From the sequence record MW584195.1: a stretch of 51,838 nt of DNA; one strand, written 5' to 3'. This stretch comes from Mycobacterium phage prophiGD51-2. Each line of letters begins with the position of its first letter. Positions within the stretch are counted from its first letter, which is position 1. The notes beneath the pieces are model-generated. The model was not told the DNA's origin. It ran no database searches and saw only the letters and a program-made list of their open reading frames with translations. The position numbers and the translations under genes were made by a program. Shown here piece after piece: positions 1 through 51,838 of the stretch.

Positions 1-43
1 CTGGGGGTCAAGTGGTCGCAGGTTCAAATCCTGTCAGCCCGAC
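1..43 (+). tRNA. 3' end of a tRNA gene (T-arm GCAGG-TTCAAAT-CCTGT plus acceptor 3' strand); attL core. The tRNA 5' part lies upstream of the window and its identity is unresolved.
   Basis: It has a canonical T-stem/T-loop (GGTTCAAATCC) followed by a 7-nt acceptor strand. The exact sequence is repeated at 51796..51838. Confidence 0.7.
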
Positions 44-3540: not shown

Positions 3541-4712
3541 CACGACCACACGTCCTCGTCGGGCTGTGCGGTCTGCGCCTGCGGCTCCTCGCGGGTGTTC
3601 GTCACGGTGAGCGTCCAGGTGCCGGCCAGGTGATCGCGCGTCCACTCGCCGACCGCTCGGCGGATGTGAGCGGCGGCCAGGAACGGGGCGGTCAGCTGCG
3701 CGAGCTGCCGATCGCCGAAGTCCACCGTGGACGGCTCGACGTTCAGCTGCACATCGCCGTTCGGCGAGACGTTCACCCCGATCAGCGTCGCGGCGGGCAC
3801 GAACGTCGCGCGGCCCTTGCTGTCCACCGCGTGCTGACCGTGGCCGATCGACTCGCAGGCGGTCGACCAGGCGGCGGTTGCCGGGGTGAACGCTCCGAGT
3901 TCGGTAACGAGCGCCTCCGCGGCCGAGCCGGCCGGGCGCTGGATGCCGCCGGACACGGCGTGCACGTACGCATCGCGACCGGTGACGGTGGGCTCCGGAA
4001 CGTGCACGGGCTGCGGTCGGGAGATGACCACGTCGGGGTGGAGCGGGTCGTAGACGGTCGGAGCGTTCGCCGCCGCGTGCTGTGCCTCGGCGAGCGCCTG
4101 CTGATACTCGCGCTCCTTGGCCTGGAACCCCTTCTCGCGGGCCTCGGCGCTCTGGTAGATCTTCACGGCGATCGCGGCGGCGATGCCGGCGGGCACAGCG
4201 ACGAGGATCGTCGCGGAGATGCTCCACCCGGACAGGGAGTAGCCGACCGCACCGAGCGCAGCGAGCACGACGCCGGCCGCGCGGTTCTTGGTCAGCCGGG
4301 CGGCGTTGATACCGGCCGCGGGGCCGGTATCGGACCGGCCGGTGAGGTCGAGCGCCTCGTCGCGGTCGAGCTTGCGGAACAGCATGCCGATGCCGGCCAG
4401 GATGAAGAGCACCGCGATCCAGGCGTACCAGTGGTCCAGCGGGGCGATGAACTGCTCAAACGGCGACTGCTCTGGCTTCGCGGCCGGCCTGTCCCACGAG
4501 TCGAGCACGTCCTGCAACGGGTGCTGCGTGGCGGTCTTCGCCCCGGCCGGAGGAGTGCAGTCCGACGGGACGCGCACGACGTTGCCGAGCGCGTCGAGCA
4601 TGCAGGTGTCACTGGGATCAGCCGACGCGCGGCCGGCACCCGTCACGGCGAGCGCAACGTAGGTGGCACCGGCTGCGGCGACCAGGTACGGAGTCCGGAA
4701 GAAGCGGTTCAT
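3540..4712 (-). CDS. Secreted/polytopic membrane protein (signal-peptide-like N-terminus, Cys-containing extracytoplasmic segment, 3-4 TM helices, ~200-aa C-terminal domain)
   Basis: ATG at 4712; an alternative GTG start lies at 4721. The hydrophobic stretches are 'WYAWIAVLFILAGIGMLF' and 'AAGVVLAALGAVGYSLSGWSISATILVAVPAGIAAAIAV'. Confidence 0.55.
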   Translation of the reverse strand: MNRFFRTPYLVAAAGATYVALAVTGAGRASADPSDTCMLDALGNVVRVPSDCTPPAGAKTATQHPLQDVLDSWDRPAAKPEQSPFEQFIAPLDHWYAWIAVLFILAGIGMLFRKLDRDEALDLTGRSDTGPAAGINAARLTKNRAAGVVLAALGAVGYSLSGWSISATILVAVPAGIAAAIAVKIYQSAEAREKGFQAKEREYQQALAEAQHAAANAPTVYDPLHPDVVISRPQPVHVPEPTVTGRDAYVHAVSGGIQRPAGSAAEALVTELGAFTPATAAWSTACESIGHGQHAVDSKGRATFVPAATLIGVNVSPNGDVQLNVEPSTVDFGDRQLAQLTAPFLAAAHIRRAVGEWTRDHLAGTWTLTVTNTREEPQAQTAQPDEDVWS

Positions 4713-7265: not shown

Positions 7266-7676
7266 ATGGACGGCTACATCACCACCACCGAGGCTGCTGC
7301 CCGCGAGGGCGTCAGCGTGCAGGCGATCAGGAAGCGGATCGAGCGCGGGAGCATGGCGGGGGTCAAGGTCGGCGGCAGCTGGATGGTGCCGGCCACCGGT
7401 TGGGAGCCGGTCACCGTGACCGTCACCGGACCGTCCGGGTGCGGTAAGACCAGGCTGGCGGGCGCCATCGCCGAGCTGTGGAAGCAGCAGGGCGGCACCG
7501 TGCACCGGACCGAGCGCGGCTCCGGCTACGAGCGGCTGATCCTGAGCGCCGTGGACTACCAGCTGGCGGACCGGGTGCACGTCAGCCCGGTCGAGGTCAT
7601 CGAGGTCTCCGACCTCGCCGAGGGCAAGGGACGGCTGGCCTTCATGAGCTCGGCGTGGGCCGAGACCGCCAACTAG
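7266..7676 (+). CDS. HTH (excisionase/MerR-like N-terminus) fused to a small P-loop (Walker A 'GPSGCGKT') domain
   Basis: The RBS is GAAGGGGAACCAC-ATG. The HTH is 'ITTTEAAAREGVSVQAIRKRIERGSM'. The Walker A motif sits at residues ~55-62. Confidence 0.6.
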   Translation: MDGYITTTEAAAREGVSVQAIRKRIERGSMAGVKVGGSWMVPATGWEPVTVTVTGPSGCGKTRLAGAIAELWKQQGGTVHRTERGSGYERLILSAVDYQLADRVHVSPVEVIEVSDLAEGKGRLAFMSSAWAETAN

Positions 7677-7705
7677 CCCAAGCTCCAACACCGAAGGGAA
7701 TCACA

Positions 7706-8293
7706 GTGAACACGACCGTGAAGCACTACGAGACCGCCACCAAGCGCGACGCCGCCGAGGCCGAGATGCTGGCCTGTGTCGCCAGCTACTTTGAGCAGGG
7801 CCTGCACCTCGTGAAGGTCCGCCCGTTCAGCAAGGTGCCGGTGAGCCGCACCTGGACCACCGATCCCAACCTCACCGTGCGCGAGGCGATCGAGCACCTG
7901 CGCGCCGAAGGCAACATCGCGATGCACCTCGGCAAGAGCGGGCTGATGGTCTACGACGTGGACGCGACCACCGTGGCGAACGCTGAGTTCCTGGGTGCGC
8001 GACCGTTCGCCGACGCTGACGTGCGGACCCCCAACGGCGGGGCGCACTACTGGCAGGCCGATACCCCGGGCGTGGACCGGGACGGGTTGCTGCACGGGAA
8101 TCGGTTCGTGCTGTTGCCGCCGAGCCGCCTCCGGGTCGATGAGGAGCCCGACCTCCCGCGCGGGTTCAGGCGCATCGGCGCGGCGCCGGTGATCGGCACC
8201 GTCCGCAACCGCCACGGGGTCGACTACGACTACAACGTGATGAACACCGGCTTCGTGGGCAGCCCTCCGCGCATCGTGAACCTCGGCGACTGA
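7706..8293 (+). CDS. Small primase-polymerase (PrimPol / bifunctional DNA primase-polymerase N-terminal domain) protein
   Basis: The GTG start follows GAAGGGAATCACA. It carries the PrimPol-like motifs 'HLGKSGLMVYDVD' and 'TPNGGAHYW'. Confidence 0.6.
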   Translation: MNTTVKHYETATKRDAAEAEMLACVASYFEQGLHLVKVRPFSKVPVSRTWTTDPNLTVREAIEHLRAEGNIAMHLGKSGLMVYDVDATTVANAEFLGARPFADADVRTPNGGAHYWQADTPGVDRDGLLHGNRFVLLPPSRLRVDEEPDLPRGFRRIGAAPVIGTVRNRHGVDYDYNVMNTGFVGSPPRIVNLGD

Positions 8294-8378
8294 CTCGAAA
8301 CACCCTCGGAAACAGCGAAGCCGGAGCACCAGGTGCTCCGGCGTTCGCCCCTCAGTCCCTCGGAAGGACACCACCAGT

Positions 8379-11372
8379 ATGGCAAACAACTCCGACGCGC
8401 ACCGCTACGCGCTCGACCGCCCCGCCGCCGAGGCGTGGGCAGATTTCTGGATCGCCCTCGGGGCGCACGTCCTGCCGCTGCGCAAGGACGGCTCGAAGAA
8501 GCCGTTGAACCCCGGCTGGCCCGACGCCCGGGCGATGACCCGCGACGACATTGTCACCTGGTTGATGCAGGGCGGCGGGATCGGCGTGAACCTGGGCAAG
8601 AGCGGCTGGGTCGGCGCTGACGCCGACAACGCCGCCGCCACCGACCTGTTCCGCAGTGCCGGTCTGGTGCGCACCGTGATCACCGCCAACTCGCAGGTGG
8701 AGGAGTCGCCGAAGTTCGGTGGCGGGCAATTTCTCATGTATGCGCCTGACGGCTACGACCCGGACACGCTGCACAGCCGGGCGTTCGAGCTCCCGTGCGG
8801 GGCAAAGGGCGACATGCTCGGCGGGCGCCGCTACATCGTCGTCCCGCCCACGCGTCTCGACGAGGCCGGCGGACGCTCGTACATGCCGGACCCGGAGGGC
8901 ATCTGGGGAGGCACCGGCGCCCCCATGCGGAAGGCCGGTCCCTGGATCGTCGACCCGAATGTGCAGGGCGACTTCGGCCGGCTGACGCCGCTGCTCGGCC
9001 TGCTCGGGCCGCGCAAGCCGCACGAGCGCGAGTATGACCCGGACGGCGAGTGGCGCACCGAGCGGCAGCAGCAGATCGACGAAATCCCCTGGGAGCGGGT
9101 GTTCGACTGCGCGGAGGGCCACAAGTTCACGGCCGACAGCACCGACAGCTGCGGCTGCGCTGTGTACGCCTACGCGGGACAGACCAGCAAGGACGGCCGC
9201 GGCCTCACCGCCCACGATGGCTGCAGCTGGGGCTGGTACGGCGCGACCTGGTCGGGTACGGCGCGGGCGCACTACGACCTGCCGCAGACCACTGATCGCC
9301 TGCGGATCGCGGCCCGGCTGCGCCACCTCGACACCGACGGCGAGGTCGCGCTCGGCCGGTCGTGGCGGGTCGGGTTCGGCGGGTTCCGCGACTTCGCCGA
9401 CACGATGGACGAGGCCGCGGAGAGGTACGAGGACTTCGCCGACGACCCGGAGAAGTGCACCGGTACCGCCCACGTGCTCGACCCGGACGTTCGGCCCACG
9501 GTCACGTCTTTCAATCCGCACGTCGCGGTGACCCGGCCTGACGCGTGGCGCGTGGTGCCCGCCGACCGGCAGCACTGGATCCGGCAGGCCGGGCAGTGCC
9601 GGGCAGTCGCGCGACAACTGCGCAGCGGGAAGCCGGCCGCGCCGCAGGGCAACGGGGAGACCTACCTGAACGGACCGGTCATCGGGGCCGAGGTGCCTCC
9701 GCAGCCGGTGTCGCAGCCGGCCGACCCCGCTGAGCCGATCGACGCCGAGACCGTCGAGCTGCCCGGTCAGGAACCGCCGACCGACACCGCCCCGGCCGTG
9801 GACGACGCGATCGACGCCGAGCTGCTCGACGGCCTGGGCACCGACAGGGCTGCCGAGTGCCGGCGGATCCTCCGCGAGCTGCGGGCAAAGATCATCCCGA
9901 TCGAACAGGAGATGGCGAAGTGCACGCCGGGGCTGCAGCGCCTGTACGACTTCGCGGAGAGCCGCGGGGTCTTCCCGCACGGGCTCGCGGGCGCCGCTAT
10001 CCCTCGCATCCTGGCGTCGGTCCCGCCGAACGTTGTGTTCCCGCCGCCGACGAGGCTGTGCGAGCACAAGGTCGAGGGGCAGGGCGTGAACGGGTACGTC
10101 GTGAACGTCGCCGCCACGTCGGCCGGTAAGGGCCGCACCGACTCCGCGGCGGAGGCGGCGTTCCCGCTCCAGAACGGGGTGGTCACCACCGGCACCGGCA
10201 CCTCGGAGGCGTGGTCGAAGAAGCTGCGCGGTGTGCAGGACGGCAAGCCGTACATCAAGACCACCAGCCTGCTGATCAACGTCGACGAGATGGATTCGCT
10301 CAACGGGTTCCTGAGCCAGCCCGGAAACAAGATGCCCGGATGGCTCGCCTCGACCTTCATGTCGGGGTACGGCGGGCAGGAGACCTCGGACGAGAAGAAC
10401 AGCGCACCGCTGCCGAAGCACGGCTCGAGGATCGGCATCCTGATCAACGCGCAGCCGGTCAAGATGGGCACCCTCGCCGCCCTGGACGGCATCGGGGTCG
10501 GGGCGCGCTTCGGCAAGGGAATGGCTGGCGTGGTCCGCAAGGTCGATCGCGGTCCGCTGTACGGGAAGAGCGTGGCCGCTGTCCTCGCGGACCAGAGTGG
10601 GCAGCCGTGGTACCACACCGGGCACGTCGGAGAGCCCCCGTACCCGCACATGCAGCCGCAGAGCGCCCGCGACGCCGCGACCGCCGCCGGAGCGGCTCCG
10701 CCCATCGTCAACCTCGGGCACAACGAGGACGGTGATCGGGTCGGCGTCACCGGGTTCGACGACGCGCCCCCGCTCTGGATCAAGCTGCCCGAGTGCGCCT
10801 GGGAGGACATCGCGGCGGGTGAGGACGTCGCCGCCGAGCGTGCGGCCGATCTGGAGCTGGCGTTCGACCAGGACGCGGAGGGCATCATCTCCGGCCACCG
10901 GATCCTGGTGGTGATGCACGTCTCGTTCGCGTTCGCGGTCCTCGACGGCAAGCACGAGGTCGAGGAGGCGCACTGGAAGGCCGCGAAGCTGTTCATGCAG
11001 GGGTCGGACCTCGTGGCCGCGATGTGCGGGGCTTGGCTGGAGCTGGCGAGCGAGGCCGAGGTGATCAAGGCCAACCAGCTCAAGGGTGTCGGTAACGCGG
11101 TCGCCCGTGCCGCGGACGCCACGGTCACCAACGGCGGTGTGGCCCGCTCCCGGCACGGCATCATCCGGGTGCTGTCGCAGGCGCCGGGCCTTACCATGAA
11201 GCCTGGCTACCTGAACTCCGGGTTCAAGGTCGGCGACAAAACGGTGGCGCTGTCCAAGGCGCAGAAGCGTCACGCGGCGCAGGCCGCGGAGCAGATGGAG
11301 CGCAGCGGTGAGCTGCGCAAAAACGCGGACGGCTCCTGGACCCTGTTGGAGAGCCTCGCCATCGCAGCGTGA
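8379..11372 (+). CDS. Large DNA primase/polymerase: N-terminal PrimPol domain plus C-terminal DUF3987-like domain with a degenerate P-loop
   Basis: The ATG start follows GGAAGGACACCACC. The N-terminal PrimPol motifs are 'HVLPLRKDGSKKPLNPGW' and 'GVNLGKSGWVGADAD'. The middle/C-terminal region contains 'NVAATSAGKGRT' and 'INVDEMDS'. Confidence 0.7.
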   Translation: MANNSDAHRYALDRPAAEAWADFWIALGAHVLPLRKDGSKKPLNPGWPDARAMTRDDIVTWLMQGGGIGVNLGKSGWVGADADNAAATDLFRSAGLVRTVITANSQVEESPKFGGGQFLMYAPDGYDPDTLHSRAFELPCGAKGDMLGGRRYIVVPPTRLDEAGGRSYMPDPEGIWGGTGAPMRKAGPWIVDPNVQGDFGRLTPLLGLLGPRKPHEREYDPDGEWRTERQQQIDEIPWERVFDCAEGHKFTADSTDSCGCAVYAYAGQTSKDGRGLTAHDGCSWGWYGATWSGTARAHYDLPQTTDRLRIAARLRHLDTDGEVALGRSWRVGFGGFRDFADTMDEAAERYEDFADDPEKCTGTAHVLDPDVRPTVTSFNPHVAVTRPDAWRVVPADRQHWIRQAGQCRAVARQLRSGKPAAPQGNGETYLNGPVIGAEVPPQPVSQPADPAEPIDAETVELPGQEPPTDTAPAVDDAIDAELLDGLGTDRAAECRRILRELRAKIIPIEQEMAKCTPGLQRLYDFAESRGVFPHGLAGAAIPRILASVPPNVVFPPPTRLCEHKVEGQGVNGYVVNVAATSAGKGRTDSAAEAAFPLQNGVVTTGTGTSEAWSKKLRGVQDGKPYIKTTSLLINVDEMDSLNGFLSQPGNKMPGWLASTFMSGYGGQETSDEKNSAPLPKHGSRIGILINAQPVKMGTLAALDGIGVGARFGKGMAGVVRKVDRGPLYGKSVAAVLADQSGQPWYHTGHVGEPPYPHMQPQSARDAATAAGAAPPIVNLGHNEDGDRVGVTGFDDAPPLWIKLPECAWEDIAAGEDVAAERAADLELAFDQDAEGIISGHRILVVMHVSFAFAVLDGKHEVEEAHWKAAKLFMQGSDLVAAMCGAWLELASEAEVIKANQLKGVGNAVARAADATVTNGGVARSRHGIIRVLSQAPGLTMKPGYLNSGFKVGDKTVALSKAQKRHAAQAAEQMERSGELRKNADGSWTLLESLAIAA

Positions 11373-11386
11373 CCCCCTCGACGCGG

Positions 11387-11422
11387 AAGGCCCCGGTTGG
11401 TACTCCGGCCGGGGCCTTCTCG
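11387..11422 (+). terminator. Rho-independent terminator after the primase gene
   Basis: AAGGCCCCGG-loop-CCGGGGCCTT followed by CTCGTGTC. Confidence 0.65.
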
Positions 11423-11454
11423 TGTCTGGGGCCTCCTCAGCGGGTGGAACGGCC

Positions 11455-11758
11455 CGAACAGCCCAAAGAATCTTTTGGGCTGTTTGGCAAAAGTACCCCT
11501 GAACTGGGGTTTTGGGCTGTTTGGGTCGTTTGGGTCGTGGGGCTGGTAGGCACACCCGCAGCCGCTGGAGGTTGGGTTATTGTTAGTTCTTCAGGATTCA
11601 ATTTAATTAACTATAACAAACTAGAACCCTGACTTCCGACCCGCTGAGGGGTGCCGGTGTCGGAACAGCCCAAAACGACCCAACAGCCCAATCCGCAGGT
11701 GAGAGGTGGTTTCGCAGCAGCCCAACGAATTTCCGTTGGGCTGTTTTGGGCTGTTCGG
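11455..11758. repeat. Iteron-like cluster: 8-mer CAGCCCAA/TTGGGCTG (>=8 exact copies in both orientations, plus TTGGGTCG/CGACCCAA variants) flanking a sharply AT-rich ~60-bp island (11575..11635); candidate replication origin
   Basis: Exact 8-mers start at 11459, 11476, 11512, 11666, 11684, 11718, 11736 and 11747. Two form perfect hairpins (11459..11483 and 11718..11743). The AT-rich segment 'ttcaggattcaatttaattaactataacaaactag' stands out in an otherwise very GC-rich genome. Confidence 0.6.
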
Positions 11759-11864
11759 GTAGCCAGAGAGAGTTTAGGTTAGCGAATCTCGCTGGTTAGC
11801 TGGCCTAGGCGCCGAGCGGGTCACCGACCCGACGGAACAGCTTCCGCCGAACACGTGCGGCGTT

Positions 11865-13223
11865 CTAGACCATCACGCCGACTTTCGCGAGTGCAGCCTC
11901 GACGGTCTTCCGGGCTTCCGTAGCCTTCACCGCGGCGTCAGCGAACCCCTGCCACGCTGCACTGACCATCGCTGAATCGACCATGTGCCGCGGTGGGAGG
12001 ACAACGGACGCCAAGTCTTCTGGGTAGAGGGCGTCCACGACCGAACCGCATGCAAGGGCGGCGATCTGTTCCTGGACCGCATCGCTGGCCATCGCCGCCC
12101 AGAGCCATCCGGAATCGTCCTCCGACTTCGGCGTCGCCCGCCCAACGTGGCCGGAGGCGTACCACCCGCTCCGCTCCGCGGTGACCATGCACGGATAGCC
12201 GAGGCTCTCCTCCGCCCGTCCGTCCGCCTGGAAGCAGACGACGCCGCGGCTCAGTTCGTAGCCGGCACCGTCTGGGATGCTTCGCGAGGAGATGTTCTTC
12301 GCACCGATGACATCGGCCTGCAGCAGCTGCCTGCCGGATACGAGCGGGGTTCCGTGCCCCGGGGCGACGTAGTAGGTCTTGTACCTACCTCCCGGCTTGG
12401 TGATGGTGGCGACCTCACCGAGCTCGACACCCCCCGCGGCGAGAACCTTCTCCCTGATCGTGTGGACGTGCGTCGAGTGGTACGCCGCATCCAGCCGTGT
12501 CCCTAGCGCGGCGGCGCTCGTCGTCCACCCCTGTCGAAGCGGTGTGTCCCGTGCGGTGTCGAGCGAGTTGTTCAGTGCTTCAACGGCTCCGTGGAGCGTG
12601 ATCCGCGACTGCTCCCTGGTCTGAGTGGCGTCGCGCATGAGCGCCGCCACCTTGGTGACGATCGAGGCGATGAACGGCACCTGTATCGCCGATACCTGGT
12701 CGACGGTGATGTGGTCGATGACCGACCCGCTGAGGTCGCCCCGCAGTAGTTGCTGCCCTACTGCGGATTGGAGAAACGCGAGCGTGTAGTAACGATCAGA
12801 CTCGTCGGCGATGGTTATCCGGACCATGTCGTGTGACAGCGCGAAGCGGGCTAGGTAATCGTCGGCTATGGTCAACGGCCCGAGGTTGCGGCCGGAGCAC
12901 GTCTGCAGCAGGTCTCCGGAGCTGATGCGGTACGTGTCAAGGTTCTCAGTCCGCGTCACCGACAACCGGTCCGCTTCGGGTGGCAGATACTCGAACACGT
13001 CGTACGGCCGGAGGTAGGAAATGAACGCCTCGCCCGGTGCGGCGTACGTTCGCTTGAATCTGCTGGGAGCCCGGACAGCGCCGAATTCTCCGATGCTCCG
13101 CAGCGGTGTCCTCTTCGCCTTTGAGAGCACCGCGCGCAGGCGAACGGCAGGCGCGGCGTGGAACCGGGCGTCTATCCGGTTGGCTTCTGACAAGGCGATG
13201 GCGCGTGTTGGTGCAATTTTCAT
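11865..13223 (-). CDS. Restriction-modification specificity (HsdS/BcgIB-like, two-TRD) subunit
   Basis: It has HsdS-like conserved spacer motifs, including '...VVLPPRHMV...'. The ATG at 13223 overlaps the stop of the upstream RM gene (ATGA) and follows GAAGG. GC3 is lower than in the phage core genes. Confidence 0.65.
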   Translation of the reverse strand: MKIAPTRAIALSEANRIDARFHAAPAVRLRAVLSKAKRTPLRSIGEFGAVRAPSRFKRTYAAPGEAFISYLRPYDVFEYLPPEADRLSVTRTENLDTYRISSGDLLQTCSGRNLGPLTIADDYLARFALSHDMVRITIADESDRYYTLAFLQSAVGQQLLRGDLSGSVIDHITVDQVSAIQVPFIASIVTKVAALMRDATQTREQSRITLHGAVEALNNSLDTARDTPLRQGWTTSAAALGTRLDAAYHSTHVHTIREKVLAAGGVELGEVATITKPGGRYKTYYVAPGHGTPLVSGRQLLQADVIGAKNISSRSIPDGAGYELSRGVVCFQADGRAEESLGYPCMVTAERSGWYASGHVGRATPKSEDDSGWLWAAMASDAVQEQIAALACGSVVDALYPEDLASVVLPPRHMVDSAMVSAAWQGFADAAVKATEARKTVEAALAKVGVMV

Positions 13224-15208
13224 TTTTGCGCCTTCAGCCACTCGCGGTACGCCTCTGCAACCTCCGCGAGTTCATCATCGATCTGACGTTCGGTAACGGT
13301 GACCTCTCGGAGTACCTCCTTGCCCGTCGTCTCGTCTATGTCCGTCACCATCTCGGTCCTGCTGATAAGCGCATCGTCACCATCCTCGGTGCGCCTGTAG
13401 ATCAGGTTGCCGCGCTTGTCGTGGCCGACTGTCTCCGCGACCGCCATGAACAACGGGTAGTCCAATCCGGTCTTCTGAGCCTTGGCGACCTCCGCGTCGT
13501 CCAGGCGCCGCATCAGCACCATCGAGGTCTGCGTGTCGTTCTTGGGCTGGAATAGATCTCGGTGCATGTCTACGACGGCGAGGATCTGGGCGTGAGTCAG
13601 TAGCCAGTGGCGCACGTAGGCGAGCCCGGGGTTGTTCAGGATCCCGTTCGGAATGACCATCGCCATACGCCCGGTGCCGGGCTTGAGCAGTTGGATGGCG
13701 CGCTCGATGAACAGGATCTCGGGCGGCTGCGACTTCTGGAGAACCGGGTTGCCGTTGCCATCGAGCCGTATTGACCAGTTGCCGTCTTCGTCCTGGTCCC
13801 ACATGGCGGCCAGGTCGTACTGGGACAGGATTTCTTCGTCGTCGATCGGGATGTTCGCTCCGAAAGGAGGATTGGACACGATCACGTCGACGCTGCCCAG
13901 GGGGAGGCTGTCTCTCAACGCTCGGTCCCACTTGTGCGGATTCTCCAGTGTGTTCGCTTGCCGGAGCTGGCCCGATCCGTCGTTGTTCATGACCATGTTC
14001 ATCTTGGCCGCGCGTACCAAGGCGGGGTTCAAGTCGATGCCGAAGACGTACTGGGACAGGTACTCGGTACGCCGGCGGTGAAGCTCGTCGCGCTCGGCGT
14101 CGGTTCCGTTCGTGGGATCGACCCACTGTGCGCGCTCCTCTGACTCGATGTGTTCGAGCGCGCGGTTCATGCCGGTAATCAAAAATCCGCCCGTGCCGCA
14201 CGACGGATCGAGAATGCGCTGGTCTGGCTGGGGATCGAGCATCGTGACCGCCATGCGGCAGGCGTTGCGAGGGGTGAAGAACTCGCCGCGGTCACCGCGA
14301 AGGTTCGAGCCGACGATCTCCTCGTAGGCGACGCCCTTGACGTCCACGGGGGTGTACAGAAGCGAGTAGCTCTGGAGCTGGCTCACGACGTACGCGATCA
14401 CTGCGGGCTTGAGGTCGATCGCGCGGTCGCGCTCCTCGAAGATGGTCGGGTACTTCCTGACCACCTTCTCCTCGAACAGCCCCTGAATGCGCTTCTTAGC
14501 TGCCGACGCTGCGGTGCTGCTGGCCCGCTCGGCGGGGGTGACGTAGAAGTTCAGACGAGAAGATCGCTCATCCTCGATCTTCGTGAAGATGAGCTTGAGG
14601 AGTTCCCAGAACGCCTCGGTCTTCTGCTTTCCCTCGTGCGCTGCGATGAAGTTGTGGCACCGACGGAAGGCGAACAGGAGGTTGTCGGCGGTCGCGACTT
14701 TCAGATCTTTGCGCTTGGGGCGTTGGACATCGTCCTCGGATTGGCCGTATCCGGGGATGTCGATGATCTCCTCGAACTCCCAGCCGCCCTTGCCATTCGA
14801 TCGCTTCGCGTAGCAGAACTTGTCGTCGCCGTTCGTCCAGATGCCGTACTTGGCGTTGAGGCACGCCGCCATGTACGAGTGGAGCTGACCGACGCCCTCA
14901 GTTCGGTGGGTCGGTTTCACGTCGGCGCGCTTCGTCTCGATGAGAACGTGGCCGTTGGGCTGCGTGTGCGGTTGGCCTGCGCCGAACACGACGATGTCCA
15001 CGCGCTTACGGCTAGATCCGACCTTGATCGGAAACTCGGGCTGGCAGTCTTTCGCTGCGAACTTGTACTGGCGCACCAGCGCCTTCTCGATGTTCTGCCG
15101 GACGTACTCCTCGGGGGTGTCGTTGACCAGCTTGCCGGTGAGGAAGTCCGCCACCTTCCCCTCAGGCACCGATCCAGCGGCGCTTACGGTCGGAGTTAGG
15201 TCGGTCAC
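13220..15208 (-). CDS. Type IIB/IIG-like bifunctional restriction endonuclease-methyltransferase (BcgIA-like): N-terminal PD-(D/E)xK (HsdR_N-type) nuclease plus gamma-class N6-adenine methyltransferase
   Basis: The nuclease motifs are 'VDIVVF...LIETKRAD'. MTase motif I is 'ILDPSCGTGGFL' and motif IV is 'VIVSNPPFG'. The GTG at 15208 is preceded by AGAGGA. Confidence 0.7.
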   Translation of the reverse strand: MTDLTPTVSAAGSVPEGKVADFLTGKLVNDTPEEYVRQNIEKALVRQYKFAAKDCQPEFPIKVGSSRKRVDIVVFGAGQPHTQPNGHVLIETKRADVKPTHRTEGVGQLHSYMAACLNAKYGIWTNGDDKFCYAKRSNGKGGWEFEEIIDIPGYGQSEDDVQRPKRKDLKVATADNLLFAFRRCHNFIAAHEGKQKTEAFWELLKLIFTKIEDERSSRLNFYVTPAERASSTAASAAKKRIQGLFEEKVVRKYPTIFEERDRAIDLKPAVIAYVVSQLQSYSLLYTPVDVKGVAYEEIVGSNLRGDRGEFFTPRNACRMAVTMLDPQPDQRILDPSCGTGGFLITGMNRALEHIESEERAQWVDPTNGTDAERDELHRRRTEYLSQYVFGIDLNPALVRAAKMNMVMNNDGSGQLRQANTLENPHKWDRALRDSLPLGSVDVIVSNPPFGANIPIDDEEILSQYDLAAMWDQDEDGNWSIRLDGNGNPVLQKSQPPEILFIERAIQLLKPGTGRMAMVIPNGILNNPGLAYVRHWLLTHAQILAVVDMHRDLFQPKNDTQTSMVLMRRLDDAEVAKAQKTGLDYPLFMAVAETVGHDKRGNLIYRRTEDGDDALISRTEMVTDIDETTGKEVLREVTVTERQIDDELAEVAEAYREWLKAQK

Positions 15209-15324
15209 GTCATACGTCCTCTGTCATCGTCCTCGCCGGGCGGCATGATGGTTAAGCCGCAGCCTATCGACGCCGTACATCGGTCCCCGGCAGACCCGCC
15301 GCCGGTGTCCGATTCCCGGTGCTG

Positions 15325-15531
15325 CTATCGGGGCCTGTCTTCAAGCCACCTCCGGATCGACGCCAGCTCTTGTTCCCACGTCACCGCCCCCGTTCCTCGA
15401 AGCAGCCGGTGCCACTCTCGCTCGGCGGCGAGGTACTGCTCCGCCCACTCCGGCAGCGCCACCGCATCGACCAGGTCTTCCGCGAACTCATCCACATGGA
15501 TTGGACGCACCACCTCACCGCGCGGTTCCAT
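15325..15531 (-). CDS. Small hypothetical protein upstream of the RM genes (possible controller/accessory protein)
   Basis: A 68-aa ORF starts with ATG at 15531. Its codon usage resembles the RM genes, and there is no strong RBS. Confidence 0.3.
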   Translation of the reverse strand: MEPRGEVVRPIHVDEFAEDLVDAVALPEWAEQYLAAEREWHRLLRGTGAVTWEQELASIRRWLEDRPR

Positions 15532-15703
15532 CTCCGCGCAACTTTGCGGGATCGCGCGTAGTTGCGCTGGCCACAGCTACTACCAGAATCGCACCAAGCA
15601 GCGGGTTCTGTTCGATCAGTTACCGAACTGAGCCCCCTGTGTGCTAAGCTGCGCTCGCTAGAGCGCCCGACGTGGACCGGAAAAGGTCCGTCACCCTCTC
15701 ATC

Positions 15704-15740
15704 ACCGCGCCCCGCATCACGCCGGGCGCGGTTCTTGTTT
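15704..15740 (+). terminator. Rho-independent terminator
   Basis: ACCGCGCCCCG-CATCACGC-CGGGCGCGGT followed by TCTTGTTT. It resembles the attL-proximal terminator. Confidence 0.7.
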
Positions 15741-15755
15741 CCGGGGGAGGCCGCT

Positions 15756-15929
15756 GTGCACCTCGACCTGACCGACCTCGGCGACTGCGGTGGCGTGATC
15801 GCCTCGCTTCGGCCAGCCCACGCGCAACCCGTGGCAGTCGACGCCCGACCGGCCCCCGCCTTCACCGGGCTGCGGTGGTTCGGGATCGCCCCCGACACCG
15901 ACGAGCCCGAGGAGTACTTCTGTGACTGA
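15756..15929 (+). CDS. Small hypothetical protein (58 aa)
   Basis: The GTG at 15756 follows GGGGGAGG with 6-nt spacing. The listed ORF 15672..15929 would start upstream of the terminator, which is implausible. Confidence 0.5.
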   Translation: MHLDLTDLGDCGGVIASLRPAHAQPVAVDARPAPAFTGLRWFGIAPDTDEPEEYFCD

Positions 15930-16083
15930 CCAGACCCCCGACGCCACCGACGACGCAGAGCTGACCGAGCCGCTGCCCGTGCCCGAGCAGAAGCCCGCCA
16001 CGAAGCCGGCCAAGCCCGCGGCCAAGACGAAGGCCACGTTCAAGCGCACGACGTACGTCCCGTACGACCACGACGCACAGTGA
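15922..16083 (+). CDS. Small Lys/Ala/Pro-rich basic protein (53 aa), not in the ORF track (<60 aa)
   Basis: The GTG at 15922 overlaps the upstream gene end. The translation is 'VTDQTPDATDDAELTEPLPVPEQKPATKPAKPAAKTKATFKRTTYVPYDHDAQ'. Its stop overlaps the next gene's GTG (GTGA). Confidence 0.4.
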   Translation: MTDQTPDATDDAELTEPLPVPEQKPATKPAKPAAKTKATFKRTTYVPYDHDAQ

Positions 16084-16388
16084 CGTACCGCTACCCGAAC
16101 AGCACGCGTACCACCACCCCCGAGCATCGCGCCCGCAGGCTCCGCGTCTTCAAGCGAGACGGTTACCGATGCCAGATCAGAGGCGCGCGGTGCACCGGTC
16201 ACGCCGACGAGCTCGACCACGTCATCGCGCTCGCTGAACACGGACCCGACACCGACGAGAACAGCCGCGCCGCGTGCCGCGAGTGCCACCGCGAGAAGAG
16301 CCTCGCCGAAGCCGCCCGCGGCCGACGCCGGCAAGCCCGCAGCGCGTGGCACCCCGTCGAGCCGCACCCCGGACTCCGCACCGCCTGA
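16080..16388 (+). CDS. HNH endonuclease (terminase-associated)
   Basis: HNH motif 'GYRCQIRGARCTGHADELDHVIALAEHG...CRECHREK'. It sits immediately upstream of terS/terL. Confidence 0.8.
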   Translation: MTYRYPNSTRTTTPEHRARRLRVFKRDGYRCQIRGARCTGHADELDHVIALAEHGPDTDENSRAACRECHREKSLAEAARGRRRQARSAWHPVEPHPGLRTA

Positions 16389-16518
16389 CCCCACCCGGGT
16401 ACCCCCTCGGACTCCGTCGAGTTCCTCGGGTGGCATAGGCGCTCGGCAAACGTACGGGTCTGGAGATTTTCAACCGACAACGCGCCGCTCGGCGCACCTC
16501 GCCGAGGAGGTGGTTCCG

Positions 16519-16992
16519 ATGGCTGGACGCGGACCCGCCCCGAAGCCGGAAGGCTCCCGCGCGCGGCGCAACGGCTCGGCGGTGTCGATGAAGGTGTACA
16601 CCTCCGAACCGACCACGCAGCCGGAGCTGCCGGAGTTCGACGTGCAGGTCGAGGTCGACGGCGCGATCGTCTCGCAGGCCTTCGTCTGGCCGCCGGCCAC
16701 CCGCCGGTGGTGGGAGACGTGGGGCGCTGAGCCGATGGCTGCGGACTTCACCGCCACCGACTGGGACTTCTTGCTCGACACCGCGCTGCTTCACGCGCGG
16801 GTGTGGGCGGAGGGCGACCTCAAGCTCCTCCCCGAACTGCGGCTGCGCGTCGCGAAGCTCGGCGCGACCGGCGAGGACCGCGCACGTCTGCGGATCACAT
16901 ACGCCGCCGCCGACCAGGCCGACGAGAAGCGGAAGACTCCGCCGCCCGGCGGCGGAAGCCGTTCCCGTCGGGGTCCGCTCAAGGCGGTGTAG
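16519..16992 (+). CDS. Terminase small subunit (P27-family-like)
   Basis: The N-terminus 'MAGRGPAPKP' is typical of the P27 family. The RBS is GAGGAGGTGG, then 5 nt, then ATG. Confidence 0.75.
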   Translation: MAGRGPAPKPEGSRARRNGSAVSMKVYTSEPTTQPELPEFDVQVEVDGAIVSQAFVWPPATRRWWETWGAEPMAADFTATDWDFLLDTALLHARVWAEGDLKLLPELRLRVAKLGATGEDRARLRITYAAADQADEKRKTPPPGGGSRSRRGPLKAV

Positions 16993-16999
16993 CTCCACC

Positions 17000-18661
17000 G
17001 TGCCGTGGAAGCCCTCCGAGGCCGGCGAAGTGCCGACCCTCGGCTGGTACGCGATCGACTGGATGACCGAGCACCTCGCGGCGCCCGGGAAGCTCGACTA
17101 CGAGCCGTTCCGGCCGACGCCGGAGCAGGAGGACTTCATCCTCCGCTGGTACGCGCTCGACCCGCGCACCGGCCGGTTCCTCCACGACCGCGGCCTGCTC
17201 GGCCGGCCTCGCGGTTGGGGCAAGAGCCCGCTCCTCGCCGCCATCGCGTGCTTCGAGGGACTCGGCGACTGCCTGCCCGACGGGTGGGACGCCGACGGTC
17301 AGCCCGTCGGCCGGCCATGGGCGACGGTGCGCACCCCGGTGGTGCACATCGCCGCGGTGACCGAGGACCAGACCCGAAACACGTGGCAGCCACTCCTCGA
17401 GATGCTGCGCGAGGGGCCGGTCCTCGACGCCTACCCCGGCCTGGACCCGATGGACACGTTCGTTTCGCTGCCGTGGTCCGGCGAAGCGCGCATCGAGCAG
17501 ATCACCGCCTCGGCGCGCAGCACCAAGGGCGCCCCGATCGTGTTCGCCACCCTGGACCAGACCGAGGAGTGGGTGCCCGGCAACGGTGGCCCGCGTCTCG
17601 CGCAGGCGATCCGCACCAACGCCGCGAAGAACGGCGGGCGCACGATCGAGAGCCCGAACGCGTTCATCCCCGGCGAAAACAGCGTCGCCGAGGAGTCCGC
17701 CGCGTTCGCCGCGAAGATCGCGGCCGGACAGACTCTCGCGACCGGCCTGCTACTCGATCACCGCGAAGCGCCGGCCGACACCGACATGAGCGACCGCGAG
17801 TCGCTGACCCACGGCCTCCGCGTCGCGTACGGCGACAGCAGCGCGCACCCCGACGGGTGCTTGCTGCACACCCCGCCGTGTCCGCCCGGGTGGGTGGAGC
17901 TGGAACCGCTTATCCAGCGCGCCTGGGATCCGTCGAGCGACCCGCAGGTGATCCGCTCCGACCTGCTCAACCAAATCACGCACGCCTCGGACTCGTGGCT
18001 GTCGAAACCGGCCTGGACCGCAGCGGCGGACGCCGCCAAGGTGATCGCCACCGGCGACACCATCGTCCTCGGCTTCGACGGCTCCCGCGGCCGCAACAAG
18101 GGCAAGGCCGACGCCACCGCGCTGATCGGCTGCCGCGTAGAGGACGGGCACCTGTTCGAGATTCGCGTCTGGGAGCAGGGACCGACCGACGACAAGGACT
18201 GGACCCCGAACGCGATCGAGGTGGACCGCGAGGTTCGCCGGTGCTTCGAGGACTACAACGTGGTCGGCTTCTACGCAGACCCGTCCGGCTGGACAGAGTG
18301 GATCGCGAAGTGGGAGGCCACCTTCGGCCGACGGCTCCGCGTTCGCGGCTCGCAGGATCACCCGATCATGGCCTGGCCGCGCGGCAAGGACTCGCGCATC
18401 GTCGAGTACGTCGAACGGTTCCGGCTCGCGACTGTGAACGGCGAACTGTCGCACGACGGTTCAAGCACCCTCACTCGCCACGTGCTGAACGCGCGCCGCC
18501 GCTCGACCCGGACCGGCTACCTGATCTTCAAGAAGTTCCCGGACTCGCCGGACAAGATCGACGCCGCCTACGCGGCGGTCATGGCATGGAAGGCGCGGAC
18601 CGACGCTCTCGCGAAGGGCGTTGGCGCGCAGCGCAAAACCAAGCGGAAGGCGGTGTTCTGA
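17000..18661 (+). CDS. Terminase large subunit
   Basis: Terminase ATPase Walker A 'GRPRGWGKSPLLAAIA', followed by a C-terminal nuclease region. The GTG start at 17000 is uncertain. Confidence 0.8.
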   Translation: MPWKPSEAGEVPTLGWYAIDWMTEHLAAPGKLDYEPFRPTPEQEDFILRWYALDPRTGRFLHDRGLLGRPRGWGKSPLLAAIACFEGLGDCLPDGWDADGQPVGRPWATVRTPVVHIAAVTEDQTRNTWQPLLEMLREGPVLDAYPGLDPMDTFVSLPWSGEARIEQITASARSTKGAPIVFATLDQTEEWVPGNGGPRLAQAIRTNAAKNGGRTIESPNAFIPGENSVAEESAAFAAKIAAGQTLATGLLLDHREAPADTDMSDRESLTHGLRVAYGDSSAHPDGCLLHTPPCPPGWVELEPLIQRAWDPSSDPQVIRSDLLNQITHASDSWLSKPAWTAAADAAKVIATGDTIVLGFDGSRGRNKGKADATALIGCRVEDGHLFEIRVWEQGPTDDKDWTPNAIEVDREVRRCFEDYNVVGFYADPSGWTEWIAKWEATFGRRLRVRGSQDHPIMAWPRGKDSRIVEYVERFRLATVNGELSHDGSSTLTRHVLNARRRSTRTGYLIFKKFPDSPDKIDAAYAAVMAWKARTDALAKGVGAQRKTKRKAVF

Positions 18662-49890: not shown

Positions 49891-50421
49891 ATGACTAGAC
49901 CAGTTACAGCCCACGGACCCGGATCCGTCGCCGTTGCCTACAACGTCCGCCGCCGTCGCAATGAGCTGGACATGAGCGGCACCGAACTGCGAGACCGACT
50001 GTCCGCCTTCGGATTAAACGTTCACCGCAGCTGGGTGTCAGAGGTGGAGAACCGCAAGCGAACCGTCGACGTCGACGAGCTTCTCGTGCTCGCGGCGGCG
50101 CTTACCGTCAGCCCGTCCACATTGCTGATGCCCCGGGCGGTCACGCCGGAGGACGTCGTGCCGACGGTGAGCGGCCCGCGCGACGCGCGGGACGTCTGGG
50201 ATTGGATAGCGGCCGAGCGCTCGCTCGGGAGCAGTTGGCTTGACGCCGACGACGAGGCGGAACGGCGCCGGTACCGCGCGGTGGCGCGCCCACCGTGGGT
50301 GGCATTCGCCGAGTCAGCGGTTGAGCACGGCGCCGCCGTGCAGGTCTCCCGCGACGTCCCCACGGATGAAGAGGTACCCGCCGAGGTACTGGAAGAAGAT
50401 CGCGCGGAGGCCAAACGATGA
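49891..50421 (+). CDS. Prophage repressor (XRE-family HTH)
   Basis: The HTH is 'MSGTELRDRLSAFGLNVHRSWVSEVENRKR'. The ATG at 49891 has no SD, which suggests a leaderless transcript. The gene ends in ATGA overlap with the integrase start. Confidence 0.65.
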   Translation: MTRPVTAHGPGSVAVAYNVRRRRNELDMSGTELRDRLSAFGLNVHRSWVSEVENRKRTVDVDELLVLAAALTVSPSTLLMPRAVTPEDVVPTVSGPRDARDVWDWIAAERSLGSSWLDADDEAERRRYRAVARPPWVAFAESAVEHGAAVQVSRDVPTDEEVPAEVLEEDRAEAKR

Positions 50422-51795: not shown

Positions 51796-51838
51796 CTGGG
51801 GGTCAAGTGGTCGCAGGTTCAAATCCTGTCAGCCCGAC
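51796..51838 (+). repeat. attR core: exact 43-nt repeat of window positions 1..43 (tRNA 3' fragment)
   Basis: It is identical to the window start. Identity may extend beyond the window edges. Confidence 0.85.

What the first reader, a model, noticed from the sequence alone, without database searches (positions are those of the whole stretch)
11455..11758. Cluster of 8-mer iterons (CAGCCCAA / TTGGGCTG) flanking a sharply AT-rich island: candidate origin of replication
Within ~300 bp there are at least eight exact copies of the 8-mer in both orientations, plus three near-copies (TTGGGTCG, CGACCCAA). Two pairs form perfect hairpins (11459..11483; 11718..11743). They bracket a ~60-bp segment (11575..11635) that is strikingly AT-rich for this genome. 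The element sits directly downstream of the PrimPol/primase genes and its terminator, and it is non-coding. Iterons plus a DNA-unwinding element is the classic architecture of a phage or plasmid ori.
Basis: seen in the sequence. Interest (0 to 1): 0.75.

Follow-up and report, generated by a model that had tools for sequence, protein, structure and literature searches.

The report
Prophage replication origin beside its primase-helicase
This non-coding stretch is very probably the replication origin of a Mycobacterium kansasii-type prophage: twelve short protein-binding repeats arranged as a mirror image around an easily melted AT-rich core, placed directly after the gene for the primase-helicase that most likely recognises them. 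The design is familiar, but it had not been pointed out for this group of phages.

Summary
CAGCCCAA occurs 10 times in the window, 8 of them in 11459-11753 (0.8 expected). There are also three CGACCCAA copies and one degenerate copy. The 22% GC island at 11577-11626 is by far the most AT-rich spot in a 69% GC prophage.

The 12 sites form a mirror-symmetric array, 6 per arm, centred on the island. The array starts about 75 bp after the stop codon of a 997-aa protein: a PrimPol domain, a DUF3987/MCM-like ATPase and a C-terminal winged helix.

All nine relatives read right across this spacer (Mycobacterium, Mycobacteroides, Tsukamurella) have the same architecture directly after the homologous gene. 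Two more contigs end inside the left arm. The repeat unit differs by lineage (CGACCTAA, GTGACAC, ACTGTCAC, CACCCCG, GGGTGACCCAG, AGCACGA).

The initiator genes are mosaics. Repeat type follows the C-terminal ATPase and winged-helix half. It does not follow the PrimPol domain, the upstream HTH gene or the downstream cargo.

The layout matches SaPI-type origins, but the initiator belongs to another helicase family. Verdict: the origin reading is supported by comparative evidence but is not experimentally shown. It is a new member of a known kind, of moderate interest.

The parts
8379..11372 (+). Gene for the 997-aa putative initiator. Residues ~26-168: PrimPol (archaeo-eukaryotic primase) domain. 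Residues ~515-712: P-loop ATPase, with invariant K584 and T587 in SAGKGRT read as Walker A and invariant D636 and E637 in VDEM read as Walker B. Residues ~935-997: winged helix.
11386..11419 (+). GC-rich hairpin (GAAGGCCCCGG / CCGGGGCCTTC) after the initiator gene; probable transcription terminator.
   Evidence: 11-bp perfect inverted repeat. The GCCCCGG...CCGGGGC core is conserved in all aligned relatives. The simple terminator scan does not score it, because no T-run follows.
11450..11482 (.). Left outer site group: CGGCCCGA (11450, +, degenerate), CAGCCCAA (11459, +) and TTGGGCTG (11475, -). The last two form a palindrome with a 6-nt spacer.
11497..11508 (+). Left copy (degenerate here: CCCTGAACTGGG) of a box, consensus CTCTGACCTGCG, that is conserved in all lineages whatever their repeat unit.
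   Evidence: Alignment A2. Box search: exact in L005; 1 mismatch in L008, L010, L011 and L012; 3 mismatches in the window.
11512..11537 (-). Left inner triple: TTGGGCTG, TTGGGTCG, TTGGGTCG, with starts 9 bp apart.
11549..11557 (.). GGCACACCC, an inner conserved motif. Its approximate inverse, GGGGTGCC, lies at 11648-11655, mirror-symmetric about ~11602.
   Evidence: Read from the sequence. The left copy is conserved in the window, L002, L003, L007 and L010. Not tested further.
11577..11626 (.). AT-rich island (22% GC) at the centre of symmetry; proposed DNA-unwinding element. Its core, AATTAACTATAACAAAC, is partly conserved among lineages (consensus about ATTTACTATAAnnAAC).
11666..11691 (+). 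Right inner triple: CAGCCCAA, CGACCCAA, CAGCCCAA (starts 10 and 8 bp apart), inverted relative to the left triple.
   Evidence: (inverted repeat I3)
11694..11705 (-). Right copy of the conserved box (CGCAGGTGAGAG; one mismatch from CGCAGGTCAGAG), inverted relative to the left copy.
11718..11753 (.). Right outer site group: CAGCCCAA (11718, +), TTGGGCTG (11736, -) and TTGGGCTG (11746, -). The first two form a palindrome with a 6-nt spacer. This group mirrors the left outer group.
   Evidence: I4: 11453-11467 / 11745-11759, 15 nt, 100% complementary

Best explanation
Window 11447-11759 is most likely the replication origin of this integrated siphovirus-type prophage. Its cognate initiator is most likely the 997-aa PrimPol / DUF3987 (MCM-like) ATPase / winged-helix protein encoded immediately upstream.

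Proposed mechanism:
1. The C-terminal winged helix of the protein binds the 8-10 bp sites (consensus AACAGCCCAA).
2. [quoted passage not shown]
3. The two assemblies face each other, because the arms are mirror images. They melt the 22% GC core at 11577-11626.
4. The ATPase rings then act as helicases and the N-terminal PrimPol domain makes the first primers. Host polymerase does the rest.

Shown here: the sites, their symmetry and their enrichment; conservation of the layout next to the homologous gene; lineage-specific replacement of all sites together; repeat type following the C-terminal half of the protein; and a predicted winged helix at the C-terminus.

Inferred: binding, stoichiometry, melting, priming and any actual initiation at this site.
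For: 1. Enrichment and symmetry. Eight of 10 exact copies lie in 300 bp against 0.8 expected in the whole window. There are 12 sites in all, in mirror arrangement: + + - [box] - - - / AT island / + + + [box'] + - -. The inner edges lie at -64 and +64 from the island centre. As single-stranded DNA the region folds as one long hairpin, z = -8.45.

2. Lowest GC in the window. The centre is 22% GC; the next lowest unrelated 50-bp window is 42%.

3. Conservation with the gene. Homologues 35-82% identical were traced to contigs from Mycobacterium, Mycobacteroides, Tsukamurella and metagenomes. All nine loci read right across the spacer (L002-L005, L007, L009-L011, L134) have a hairpin, then an array, an AT island and an inverted array directly 3' of the gene. 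L008 and L012 end inside the left arm. The downstream genes differ: a minus-strand restriction-modification pair here, SocA_Panacea, SLFN/AlbA_2, a PLD-helicase or others elsewhere.

4. Concerted change of the repeat unit. CAGCCCAA (window, L002, L005); CGACCTAA/CGACCGAA (L003, L004, L007); GTGACAC (L008, L012); ACTGTCAC (L009); CACCCCG (L010); GGGTGACCCAG (L011); AGCACGA/CGCACAA (L134). Geometry is kept throughout.

5. Natural domain swaps. Window residues 1-260 are 93% identical to P0003, whose repeat is different. Residues 261-460 are 96% identical to P0006, which belongs to the other repeat family. Residues 470-997 are 95-97% identical to P0002, which has the same repeat. Across all 11 proteins the C-terminal halves fall into two families that coincide with the two repeat families. 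N-terminal relationships cut across them: P0005 and P0008 are 95% identical in the N-terminal part and 24% in the C-terminal part, and have different repeats.

6. The upstream HTH_17 protein does not track repeat type. L004 and L008 are 89% identical there but belong to different repeat families. The window and L005 are 11% identical there but have nearly the same repeat.

8. Precedent. SaPI origins have 6-12 short iterons immediately downstream of rep, split by a central AT-rich region. Rep's C-terminal winged helix binds them, and two hexamers are proposed to load, one per side (PMC9371898). DUF3987 proteins have been predicted to be MCM-related replicative helicases with a C-terminal wHTH, often fused to archaeo-eukaryotic primases (PMC4889955; PMC5862659).
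Against: No experiment shows binding or initiation.

The link between repeat type and the C-terminal half is confounded by physical linkage. The 3' end of the gene adjoins the array, so recombination would move them together even without functional coupling.

Cumulative GC skew peaks near 15 kb rather than reaching a minimum at 11.6 kb, so skew gives no support.

The full-length structure model is poor (mean pLDDT 58), and its ATPase part matches MCM only weakly (E 0.1-1).

Pfam, NCBIfam and PDB sequence searches do not recognise the C-terminal half directly.

The box conserved in all lineages has no assigned binder, so part of the element is unexplained.

A distant homologue in Gordonia phage Jojo24 has no intergenic spacer after the gene. 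The arrangement is therefore specific to this sub-family.
Confidence: 0.8

Rival explanations
1. The array is a regulatory or copy-control element rather than the start site of replication. The sites would bind the primase-helicase or another phage protein for autoregulation, handcuffing or incompatibility. The AT-rich core would hold a promoter, and initiation would occur elsewhere.
For: The AT core contains a partly conserved TATAAT-like stretch (consensus ATTTACTATAAnnAAC). In L003 and L004 the next genes run in the same direction, away from the array. Iteron arrays in plasmids also serve copy control (general knowledge).
Against: In the window and in L002 the array lies between the 3' ends of convergent genes, so a promoter there would only make antisense RNA. 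The sigma-70-type scan finds no promoter. L003 and L004 have about 290 bp of further spacer before the next gene. No second array exists in the window that could be the true origin.
Confidence: 0.08
2. The array is a packaging recognition site (cos or pac region), with repeats bound by the small terminase subunit.
For: Lambda cosB-type regions also combine repeated protein sites in both orientations with bendable AT-rich DNA (general knowledge). If the restriction-modification pair is a later insertion, the array would once have lain closer to the late genes.
Against: The HNH endonuclease (16080-16388), the TerS-like gene (16510-16992) and TerL (17000-18661) lie about 5 kb away. They have their own spacer at 16389-16509. 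In relatives the array always follows the primase-helicase gene, and in L003, L004 and L010 defence-type cargo comes next rather than packaging genes. Repeat type follows the helicase C-terminal half.
Confidence: 0.03
3. The array is a partition centromere (parS-like) or another site array for a protein encoded elsewhere.
For: Clustered short repeats in both orientations also occur in centromere-like sites (general knowledge).
Against: This prophage is integrated, with 43-bp att repeats and a tyrosine integrase. No ParA or ParB gene was seen near the array in any locus. The upstream HTH_17 protein does not track repeat type.
Confidence: 0.03
4. The array is a small non-autonomous mobile element with terminal inverted repeats, or a structured non-coding RNA gene.
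For: There are 15-nt perfect terminal inverted repeats (11453-11467 / 11745-11759). The region folds strongly (z = -8.45). The hairpin arms change together between lineages.
Against: The same short unit also occurs as tandem direct triples, which neither reading explains. The element is single-copy in the window and always sits at the same place relative to one gene. Rfam gives only sub-threshold chance matches.
Confidence: 0.02

Closest known systems
SaPI / PICI replication origins with Rep or fused Pri-Rep (e.g. PriRep5 of SaPI5)
   Same: Short repeats (6-12) sit immediately downstream of the initiator-helicase gene. An AT-rich region at the centre splits them into two sets, and sites occur in opposite orientations on each side. 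The initiator is a self-contained helicase with a C-terminal winged helix that reads the repeats, and in some islands it is fused to a primase. Specificity is lineage-specific (PMC9371898).
   Different: Here the helicase part is DUF3987/MCM-like (SF6) by distant homology, not the SF3-clade SaPI Rep. The primase is a PrimPol/archaeo-eukaryotic type. The sites are 8-10 bp rather than 5-6 bp. The carrier is a complete 51.8-kb prophage with capsid and tail genes, not a satellite. The host is a high-GC actinobacterium. An extra box conserved in all lineages sits in each arm.
Phage P4 ori / crr with the alpha primase-helicase
   Same: One polypeptide combines a primase, a helicase and a C-terminal origin-binding domain. 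The origin is built from octamer repeats in both orientations (my recollection of the P4 literature; no paper was retrieved here).
   Different: P4 needs a second repeat cluster (crr) at a distance. The window has no second cluster. P4's primase and helicase belong to other families.
DUF3987 (MCM-related, SF6) phage helicases fused to archaeo-eukaryotic primases
   Same: The domain order is primase, then ATPase, then C-terminal wHTH. These proteins were predicted in the literature to be replicative helicases of phages, including a mycobacteriophage (PMC4889955; PMC5862659).
   Different: The passages I read in those papers describe the proteins, not their cognate origins. The window protein does not itself reach the Pfam DUF3987 threshold. 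It is linked only through intermediate homologues.
Classical iteron plasmid origins (pPS10, RK2, F, P1 RepA type)
   Same: Repeated initiator sites lie next to an AT-rich unwinding element and next to the initiator gene.
   Different: Those iterons are typically 17-22 bp direct repeats on one side of the unwinding element, usually with DnaA boxes, and the initiator is not a helicase (general knowledge). Here the sites are 8-10 bp, lie in both orientations on both sides, and there is no DnaA-box-like site within 2 mismatches between 10540 and 11995.
Polyomavirus / papillomavirus core origins (large T antigen, E1)
   Same: Short sites in mirror symmetry sit beside AT-rich DNA and assemble two head-to-head hexameric initiator-helicases. 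This is a functional analogy from general knowledge.
   Different: The proteins are unrelated (SF3 helicases with their own origin-binding domains). The two site groups are much closer together. The hosts are eukaryotic.

Membership tests
SaPI/PICI-type origin (iterons flanking an AT-rich centre, 3' of rep) | 6-12 short repeats immediately downstream of the initiator ORF | tested here: met
   12 sites in 11450-11753. The gene stops at 11372.
SaPI/PICI-type origin (iterons flanking an AT-rich centre, 3' of rep) | AT-rich region near the centre, with about half of the repeats on each side | tested here: met
   The 22% GC island at 11577-11626 has 6 sites on each side.
SaPI/PICI-type origin (iterons flanking an AT-rich centre, 3' of rep) | [quoted passage not shown] | tested here: met
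   The left inner triple is on the - strand and the right inner triple on the + strand. There is an outer palindrome on each side.
SaPI/PICI-type origin (iterons flanking an AT-rich centre, 3' of rep) | Initiator carries a C-terminal winged-helix domain | tested here: met
SaPI/PICI-type origin (iterons flanking an AT-rich centre, 3' of rep) | Initiator is homologous to the SaPI Rep helicase (SF3 clade) | tested here: not met
   A profile search of PDB chain sequences returned no match at all. That library includes the deposited SaPI Rep structures if they were deposited, which I did not check. The ATPase part links instead to DUF3987/AAA_lid_2 proteins, with weak MCM-like fold matches.
SaPI/PICI-type origin (iterons flanking an AT-rich centre, 3' of rep) | Carrier is a phage satellite lacking its own virion genes | tested here: not met
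   The window encodes TerL, a head protease/morphogenesis protein, the major capsid protein and the tape measure protein, all between att repeats.
SaPI/PICI-type origin (iterons flanking an AT-rich centre, 3' of rep) | Specific, ATP-independent binding and melting of the origin by the initiator | not testable with these tools
   Needs gel-shift (EMSA) and KMnO4 footprinting.
P4-type origin (ori plus crr) | A second cis-required repeat cluster at a distance | tested here: not met
   Only two isolated extra copies of the 8-mer, at 13542 and 14955, and no second cluster.
Classical plasmid iteron origin | 17-22 bp direct repeats on one side of the unwinding element | tested here: not met
   Units are 8-10 bp, in both orientations, on both sides.
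Classical plasmid iteron origin | DnaA box(es) in the origin | tested here: not met
   No TTSTCCACA-like site within 2 mismatches between 10540 and 11995.
PrimPol-DUF3987-wHTH phage replication proteins | N-terminal archaeo-eukaryotic primase / PrimPol domain | tested here: met
   Pfam PF09250, E 2.9e-10. Fold matches to the pRN1 and NrS-1 PrimPol structures.
PrimPol-DUF3987-wHTH phage replication proteins | DUF3987-type ATPase domain | tested here: inconclusive
   The window protein has no direct Pfam hit. Seven of ten sampled distant homologues (E 1e-10 to 1e-16) have DUF3987 matches at E <= 0.001. Five of these reach Pfam's 27-bit cutoff and two also match AAA_lid_2.
Mycobacteriophage stoperator-type repressor sites | Sites dispersed through the genome in intergenic regions | tested here: not met
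   Sites are confined to one 300-bp cluster.

The most novel reading that the evidence does not exclude
This may be a bacterial-virus example of an MCM-related (DUF3987/SF6) helicase that loads itself as two opposed hexamers, one per six-site arm, with no separate initiator or loader.

The Mycobacteriales prophage family would then carry at least six or seven mutually orthogonal initiator/origin specificities. These would have been generated by swapping the ATPase and winged-helix half together with its array.

The box conserved in all lineages (CTCTGACCTGCG and its inverse) would be a separate signal common to every lineage. It could be the template site where the PrimPol domain starts the first primer on each strand, or a host-factor site.
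Probability: 0.3. Interest if true: 0.6.

Novelty: new member of a known kind. Interest (0 to 1): 0.45.

Why it matters
Replication origins of integrating actinobacteriophages are mostly unmapped. The one mycobacteriophage origin study I read concerns different systems, RepA-dependent and RNA-based (PMC7157519).

A compact, self-contained cassette of about 3.4 kb (initiator gene plus 310-bp origin), with several naturally orthogonal specificities, could give new mutually compatible replicons for mycobacterial genetics.

It would also offer a simple bacterial model for how an MCM-like ring with a winged helix recognises and opens duplex DNA.

For annotation, the layout gives a practical rule for locating origins in related prophages: hairpin, then 3+3 sites, an AT island, and 3+3 inverted sites, directly after a PrimPol-ATPase gene. 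It also marks the slot just beyond the origin as a place where defence genes accumulate.

Tried and rejected
- DNA similarity search of 8001-16000 against phage records found nothing. Against plasmids it matched only the methylase gene.
- The scan of viral contigs with the alignment found no relative.
- A two-site DNA pattern scan of viral contigs gave only chance or unrelated repeat hits. No locus had a comparable array.
- Rfam at a permissive threshold gave only sub-threshold microRNA/sRNA chance matches.
- The promoter/terminator scan found no sigma-70-type promoter and only one weak terminator-like site inside the array.
- A word-indexed homologue search with the C-terminal half alone returned one protein. 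The exhaustive representative search was needed instead.
- Pfam, NCBIfam and PDB sequence searches did not recognise the C-terminal half.
- The full-length AlphaFold model was too poor (pLDDT 58) for the ATPase part. Only the separately modelled C-terminus was usable.
- GC skew gives no origin signal at 11.6 kb.
- attP was rejected as an explanation, because the att repeats are at the window ends.
- The upstream HTH_17 protein was rejected as the site reader.
- The distant Gordonia phage homologue has no spacer after its gene, so it is uninformative.

Full report
**1. What the window is**

The first 43 bases (1-43) are repeated exactly at 51796-51838 and look like the 3' end of a tRNA gene (GGTTCAAATCC). 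A tyrosine integrase gene lies at 50418-51623. Between the repeats are:
- a terminase large subunit gene (17000-18661);
- an HNH endonuclease gene (16080-16388) and a TerS-like gene (16510-16992);
- a head protease/morphogenesis gene (20150-21934);
- the major capsid gene (23322-24359);
- a 1345-aa tape measure gene (27647-31684).

The window is therefore one integrated siphovirus-type prophage of 69% GC. The closest database protein to its primase-helicase (99% identity) is annotated as from Mycobacterium kansasii.

**2.

- CAGCCCAA/TTGGGCTG occurs 10 times in the window, 8 of them in 11459-11753. Shuffles give a mean of 0.82 and at most 5.
- Three CGACCCAA copies (11521, 11530, 11676) and one degenerate CGGCCCGA (11450) bring the total to 12 sites.
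- It is the most clustered 8-mer in the window.
- The segment 11577-11626 is 22% GC. The next lowest unrelated 50-bp window is 42%.
- No ORF across the region has the third-position GC bias of this genome's real genes.

**3. Anatomy**

Reading left to right:
- the stop codon of the 997-aa gene (11372);
- an 11-bp perfect GC hairpin (11386-11419);
- sites + + - (11450, 11459, 11475);
- a box, CCCTGAACTGGG (11497-11508);
- sites - - - with starts 9 bp apart (11512, 11521, 11530);
- GGCACACCC (11549-11557);
- the AT island (11577-11626);
- GGGGTGCC (11648-11655);
- sites + + + (11666, 11676, 11684);
- a box, CGCAGGTGAGAG (11694-11705);
- sites + - - (11718, 11736, 11746).

The right arm is the mirror image of the left. 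The inner sites end and begin 64 bp from the island centre. The outermost 15 nt (11453-11467 and 11745-11759) are perfectly complementary. As single-stranded DNA the region folds into one long hairpin (z = -8.45). That result simply restates the symmetry.

The element lies between the 3' ends of convergent genes. One is the primase-helicase on the + strand. The other is a restriction-modification pair on the - strand (11865-13241 and 13220-15208), which has lower GC (62-65%) and looks like an acquired cargo.

**4. The neighbouring protein**

- The N-terminus is a PrimPol domain (Pfam E 2.9e-10). Its model matches the pRN1 ORF904 and NrS-1 PrimPol structures.
- The middle has a P-loop. K584 and T587 in SAGKGRT, and D636 and E637 in VDEM, are invariant among 11 homologues, and I read them as Walker A and Walker B.
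- Residues 515-712 are related, at E 1e-10 to 1e-16, to hundreds of proteins. Seven of ten sampled carry DUF3987 matches (five reach Pfam's cutoff), and two also match AAA_lid_2.
- The literature describes DUF3987 as an MCM-related (SF6) helicase family of phages. It is often fused to archaeo-eukaryotic primases and ends in a winged HTH (PMC4889955; PMC5862659).
- The protein thus has the parts needed to recognise, open and prime an origin.

**5. Comparative evidence**

Eleven homologues (35-82% identical) were traced to their contigs: L002-L012, and L134 for P0012. In all nine loci read right across the spacer after the gene, the same layout follows the stop codon. The layout is a hairpin, an outer site group, the box, a tandem triple, an AT island (24-36% GC), an inverted triple, the inverted box and an outer group. 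L008 and L012 end inside the left arm and show its beginning. L006 duplicates L005 and was not read separately.

The downstream neighbours differ:
- a restriction-modification pair here and in L002;
- SocA_Panacea in L003 and L004;
- DUF3885, then SLFN/AlbA_2 plus an Eco57I-type methylase, in L009;
- a PLD-helicase further downstream in L010.

The array therefore travels with the primase-helicase gene and not with anything downstream.

The repeat unit is replaced as a whole from lineage to lineage, while the geometry stays:

| Loci | Repeat unit |
|---|---|
| window, L002, L005 | CAGCCCAA |
| L003, L004, L007 | CGACCTAA / CGACCGAA |
| L008, L012 | GTGACAC |
| L009 | ACTGTCAC |
| L010 | CACCCCG |
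| L011 | GGGTGACCCAG |
| L134 | AGCACGA / CGCACAA |

Concerted change of a dozen sites is what a protein-binding array co-evolving with its reader looks like.

**6. Which protein reads the sites**

The initiator genes are mosaics:
- Window residues 1-260 are 93% identical to P0003, whose repeat is CGACCTAA.
- Residues 261-460 are 96% identical to P0006, whose repeat is GTGACAC.
- Residues 470-997 are 95-97% identical to P0002, which has the same repeat as the window.

Over all 11 proteins the C-terminal halves fall into two families:
- One family comprises the window, P0002-P0005, P0007 and P0009. Their repeats are of the AACRNCCNRA type.
- The other comprises P0006, P0008, P0010 and P0011. 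Their repeats have a GTGAC core.

N-terminal relationships cut across this split. P0005 and P0008 are 95% identical in the N-terminal part and 24% in the C-terminal part. P0009 and P0011 are 59% and 21%.

The only other DNA-binding gene always nearby, the upstream HTH_17, does not follow repeat type. L004 and L008 are 89% identical there but belong to different repeat families. The window and L005 are 11% identical there with nearly the same repeat.

One caveat applies. The C-terminal coding region adjoins the array, so linkage alone could produce this pattern.

**7. Rivals**

- attP is excluded by the att repeats at the window ends.
- A packaging site is unlikely. The HNH, TerS and TerL genes and their own spacer lie 5 kb away, and relatives place defence cargo after the array rather than packaging genes.
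- A centromere is unlikely for an integrating phage with no par genes nearby.
- A promoter/operator reading fits poorly with convergent flanking genes and with no promoter match. A conserved TATAAT-like core in the island leaves some room for transcription at the origin.
- A mobile element or an RNA gene does not explain the tandem direct triples or the fixed position.
- GC skew does not support an origin at 11.6 kb, but it is a weak guide in phages.

**8. Comparison with known systems**

The layout is that described for SaPI origins. Those have 6-12 short iterons directly after rep and an AT-rich centre, with sites in opposite orientation on the two sides. A C-terminal winged helix reads them, the primase is fused to Rep in SaPI5, and two hexamers are proposed to load, one per side (PMC9371898).

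This case differs in several ways:
- the helicase family (DUF3987/MCM-like, not the SF3-clade Rep);
- the primase family (PrimPol);
- the site length (8-10 bp);
- the carrier (a full prophage, not a satellite);
- the host phylum;
- a box conserved in all lineages in each arm, whose binder is unknown.

It is not a classical plasmid iteron origin. The units are short and lie in both orientations, and there is no DnaA box. It also lacks the second cluster of the P4 type. The mycobacteriophage origin study I read concerns other systems, RepA-dependent and RNA-based (PMC7157519).

**9. Verdict**

The origin interpretation is supported by strong comparative evidence but is untested experimentally (confidence about 0.8). 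It is a new member of a known kind of origin.

Interest is moderate. The design is familiar, but three features give concrete experiments and possible tools for mycobacterial genetics: the set of naturally orthogonal initiator/origin pairs, the 6+6 symmetric layout with an MCM-like self-contained initiator, and the unexplained conserved box.

Noticed in passing
window 1-43 and 51796-51838; 50418-51623: An exact 43-bp direct repeat sits at the two ends of the window and looks like a tRNA 3' end (GGTTCAAATCC T-loop): attL and attR. A tyrosine integrase gene lies next to the right copy. The window is exactly one prophage.
   Followed up: partly
window 11865-15208 (- strand); L003/L004 8769-10090; L009 6661-10529; L010 10552-13339: The slot just beyond the origin holds different defence-type cargo in each relative. 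Here it is a MADS5-like specificity subunit plus an HSDR_N/N6_Mtase/Eco57I-type enzyme, at 62-65% GC. Elsewhere it is SocA_Panacea, SLFN/AlbA_2 plus a methylase (after a DUF3885 gene), or a PLD-helicase (after two other genes). L004 also has a faint NACHT match about 3 kb downstream. It looks like a variable cargo hot spot 3' of the origin.
   Followed up: partly
window 11497-11508 and 11694-11705; L005 8183 and 8379; L010 8523 and 8730: A 12-bp box (CTCTGACCTGCG and its inverse) sits at the same place in each arm in all lineages, although the repeats around it differ completely. Its binder or role is unknown. It could be a priming signal, a host-factor site or a conserved part of the initiator's target. 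Similar sequences also occur in the divergent promoter region upstream in L004, L007 and L008 (around 3820-4160).
   Followed up: partly
window 8379-11372: The primase-helicase gene is a three-piece mosaic. Residues 1-260 are 93% identical to an M. chelonae-type relative (P0003). Residues 261-460 are 96% identical to a different relative (P0006). Residues 470-997 are 95-97% identical to a third (P0002). Recombination breakpoints fall between domains.
   Followed up: yes
window ~7673-8293 (+): A second, short PrimPol-like ORF lies just upstream of the large one. It is 25% identical to the large protein's N-terminus (E 1e-5; Pfam Prim-Pol E 4e-9). Its true start is uncertain, because the longest ORF (7478-8293) overlaps the well-supported gene 7266-7676 in another frame. 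Its role is unknown.
   Followed up: partly
window 1582-3540 (- strand) and the equivalent genes in L002-L004, L007, L008: A FtsK/SpoIIIE-like ATPase gene, transcribed away from the early genes, is conserved near the att-proximal end in this prophage family. This is more typical of actinomycete conjugative elements than of phages.
   Followed up: no
window 11435-11445 and 11639-11649: A further perfect 11-nt inverted pair (CCTCAGCGGGT / ACCCGCTGAGG) is not symmetric about the main centre of symmetry. The left copy is conserved in L002 and L005. It is unexplained.
   Followed up: no
window 16080-17000: An HNH endonuclease gene lies directly before the TerS-like and TerL genes. This is the usual signature of HNH-assisted cos packaging, so the packaging site is probably in the 16389-16509 spacer.
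   Followed up: no
L133 (Gordonia phage Jojo24, gene 53): A distant homologue (24% identity over the ATPase and C-terminal part) is annotated as DNA primase/polymerase. It has no spacer after the gene, so the origin layout described here is not shared by all relatives.
   Followed up: partly
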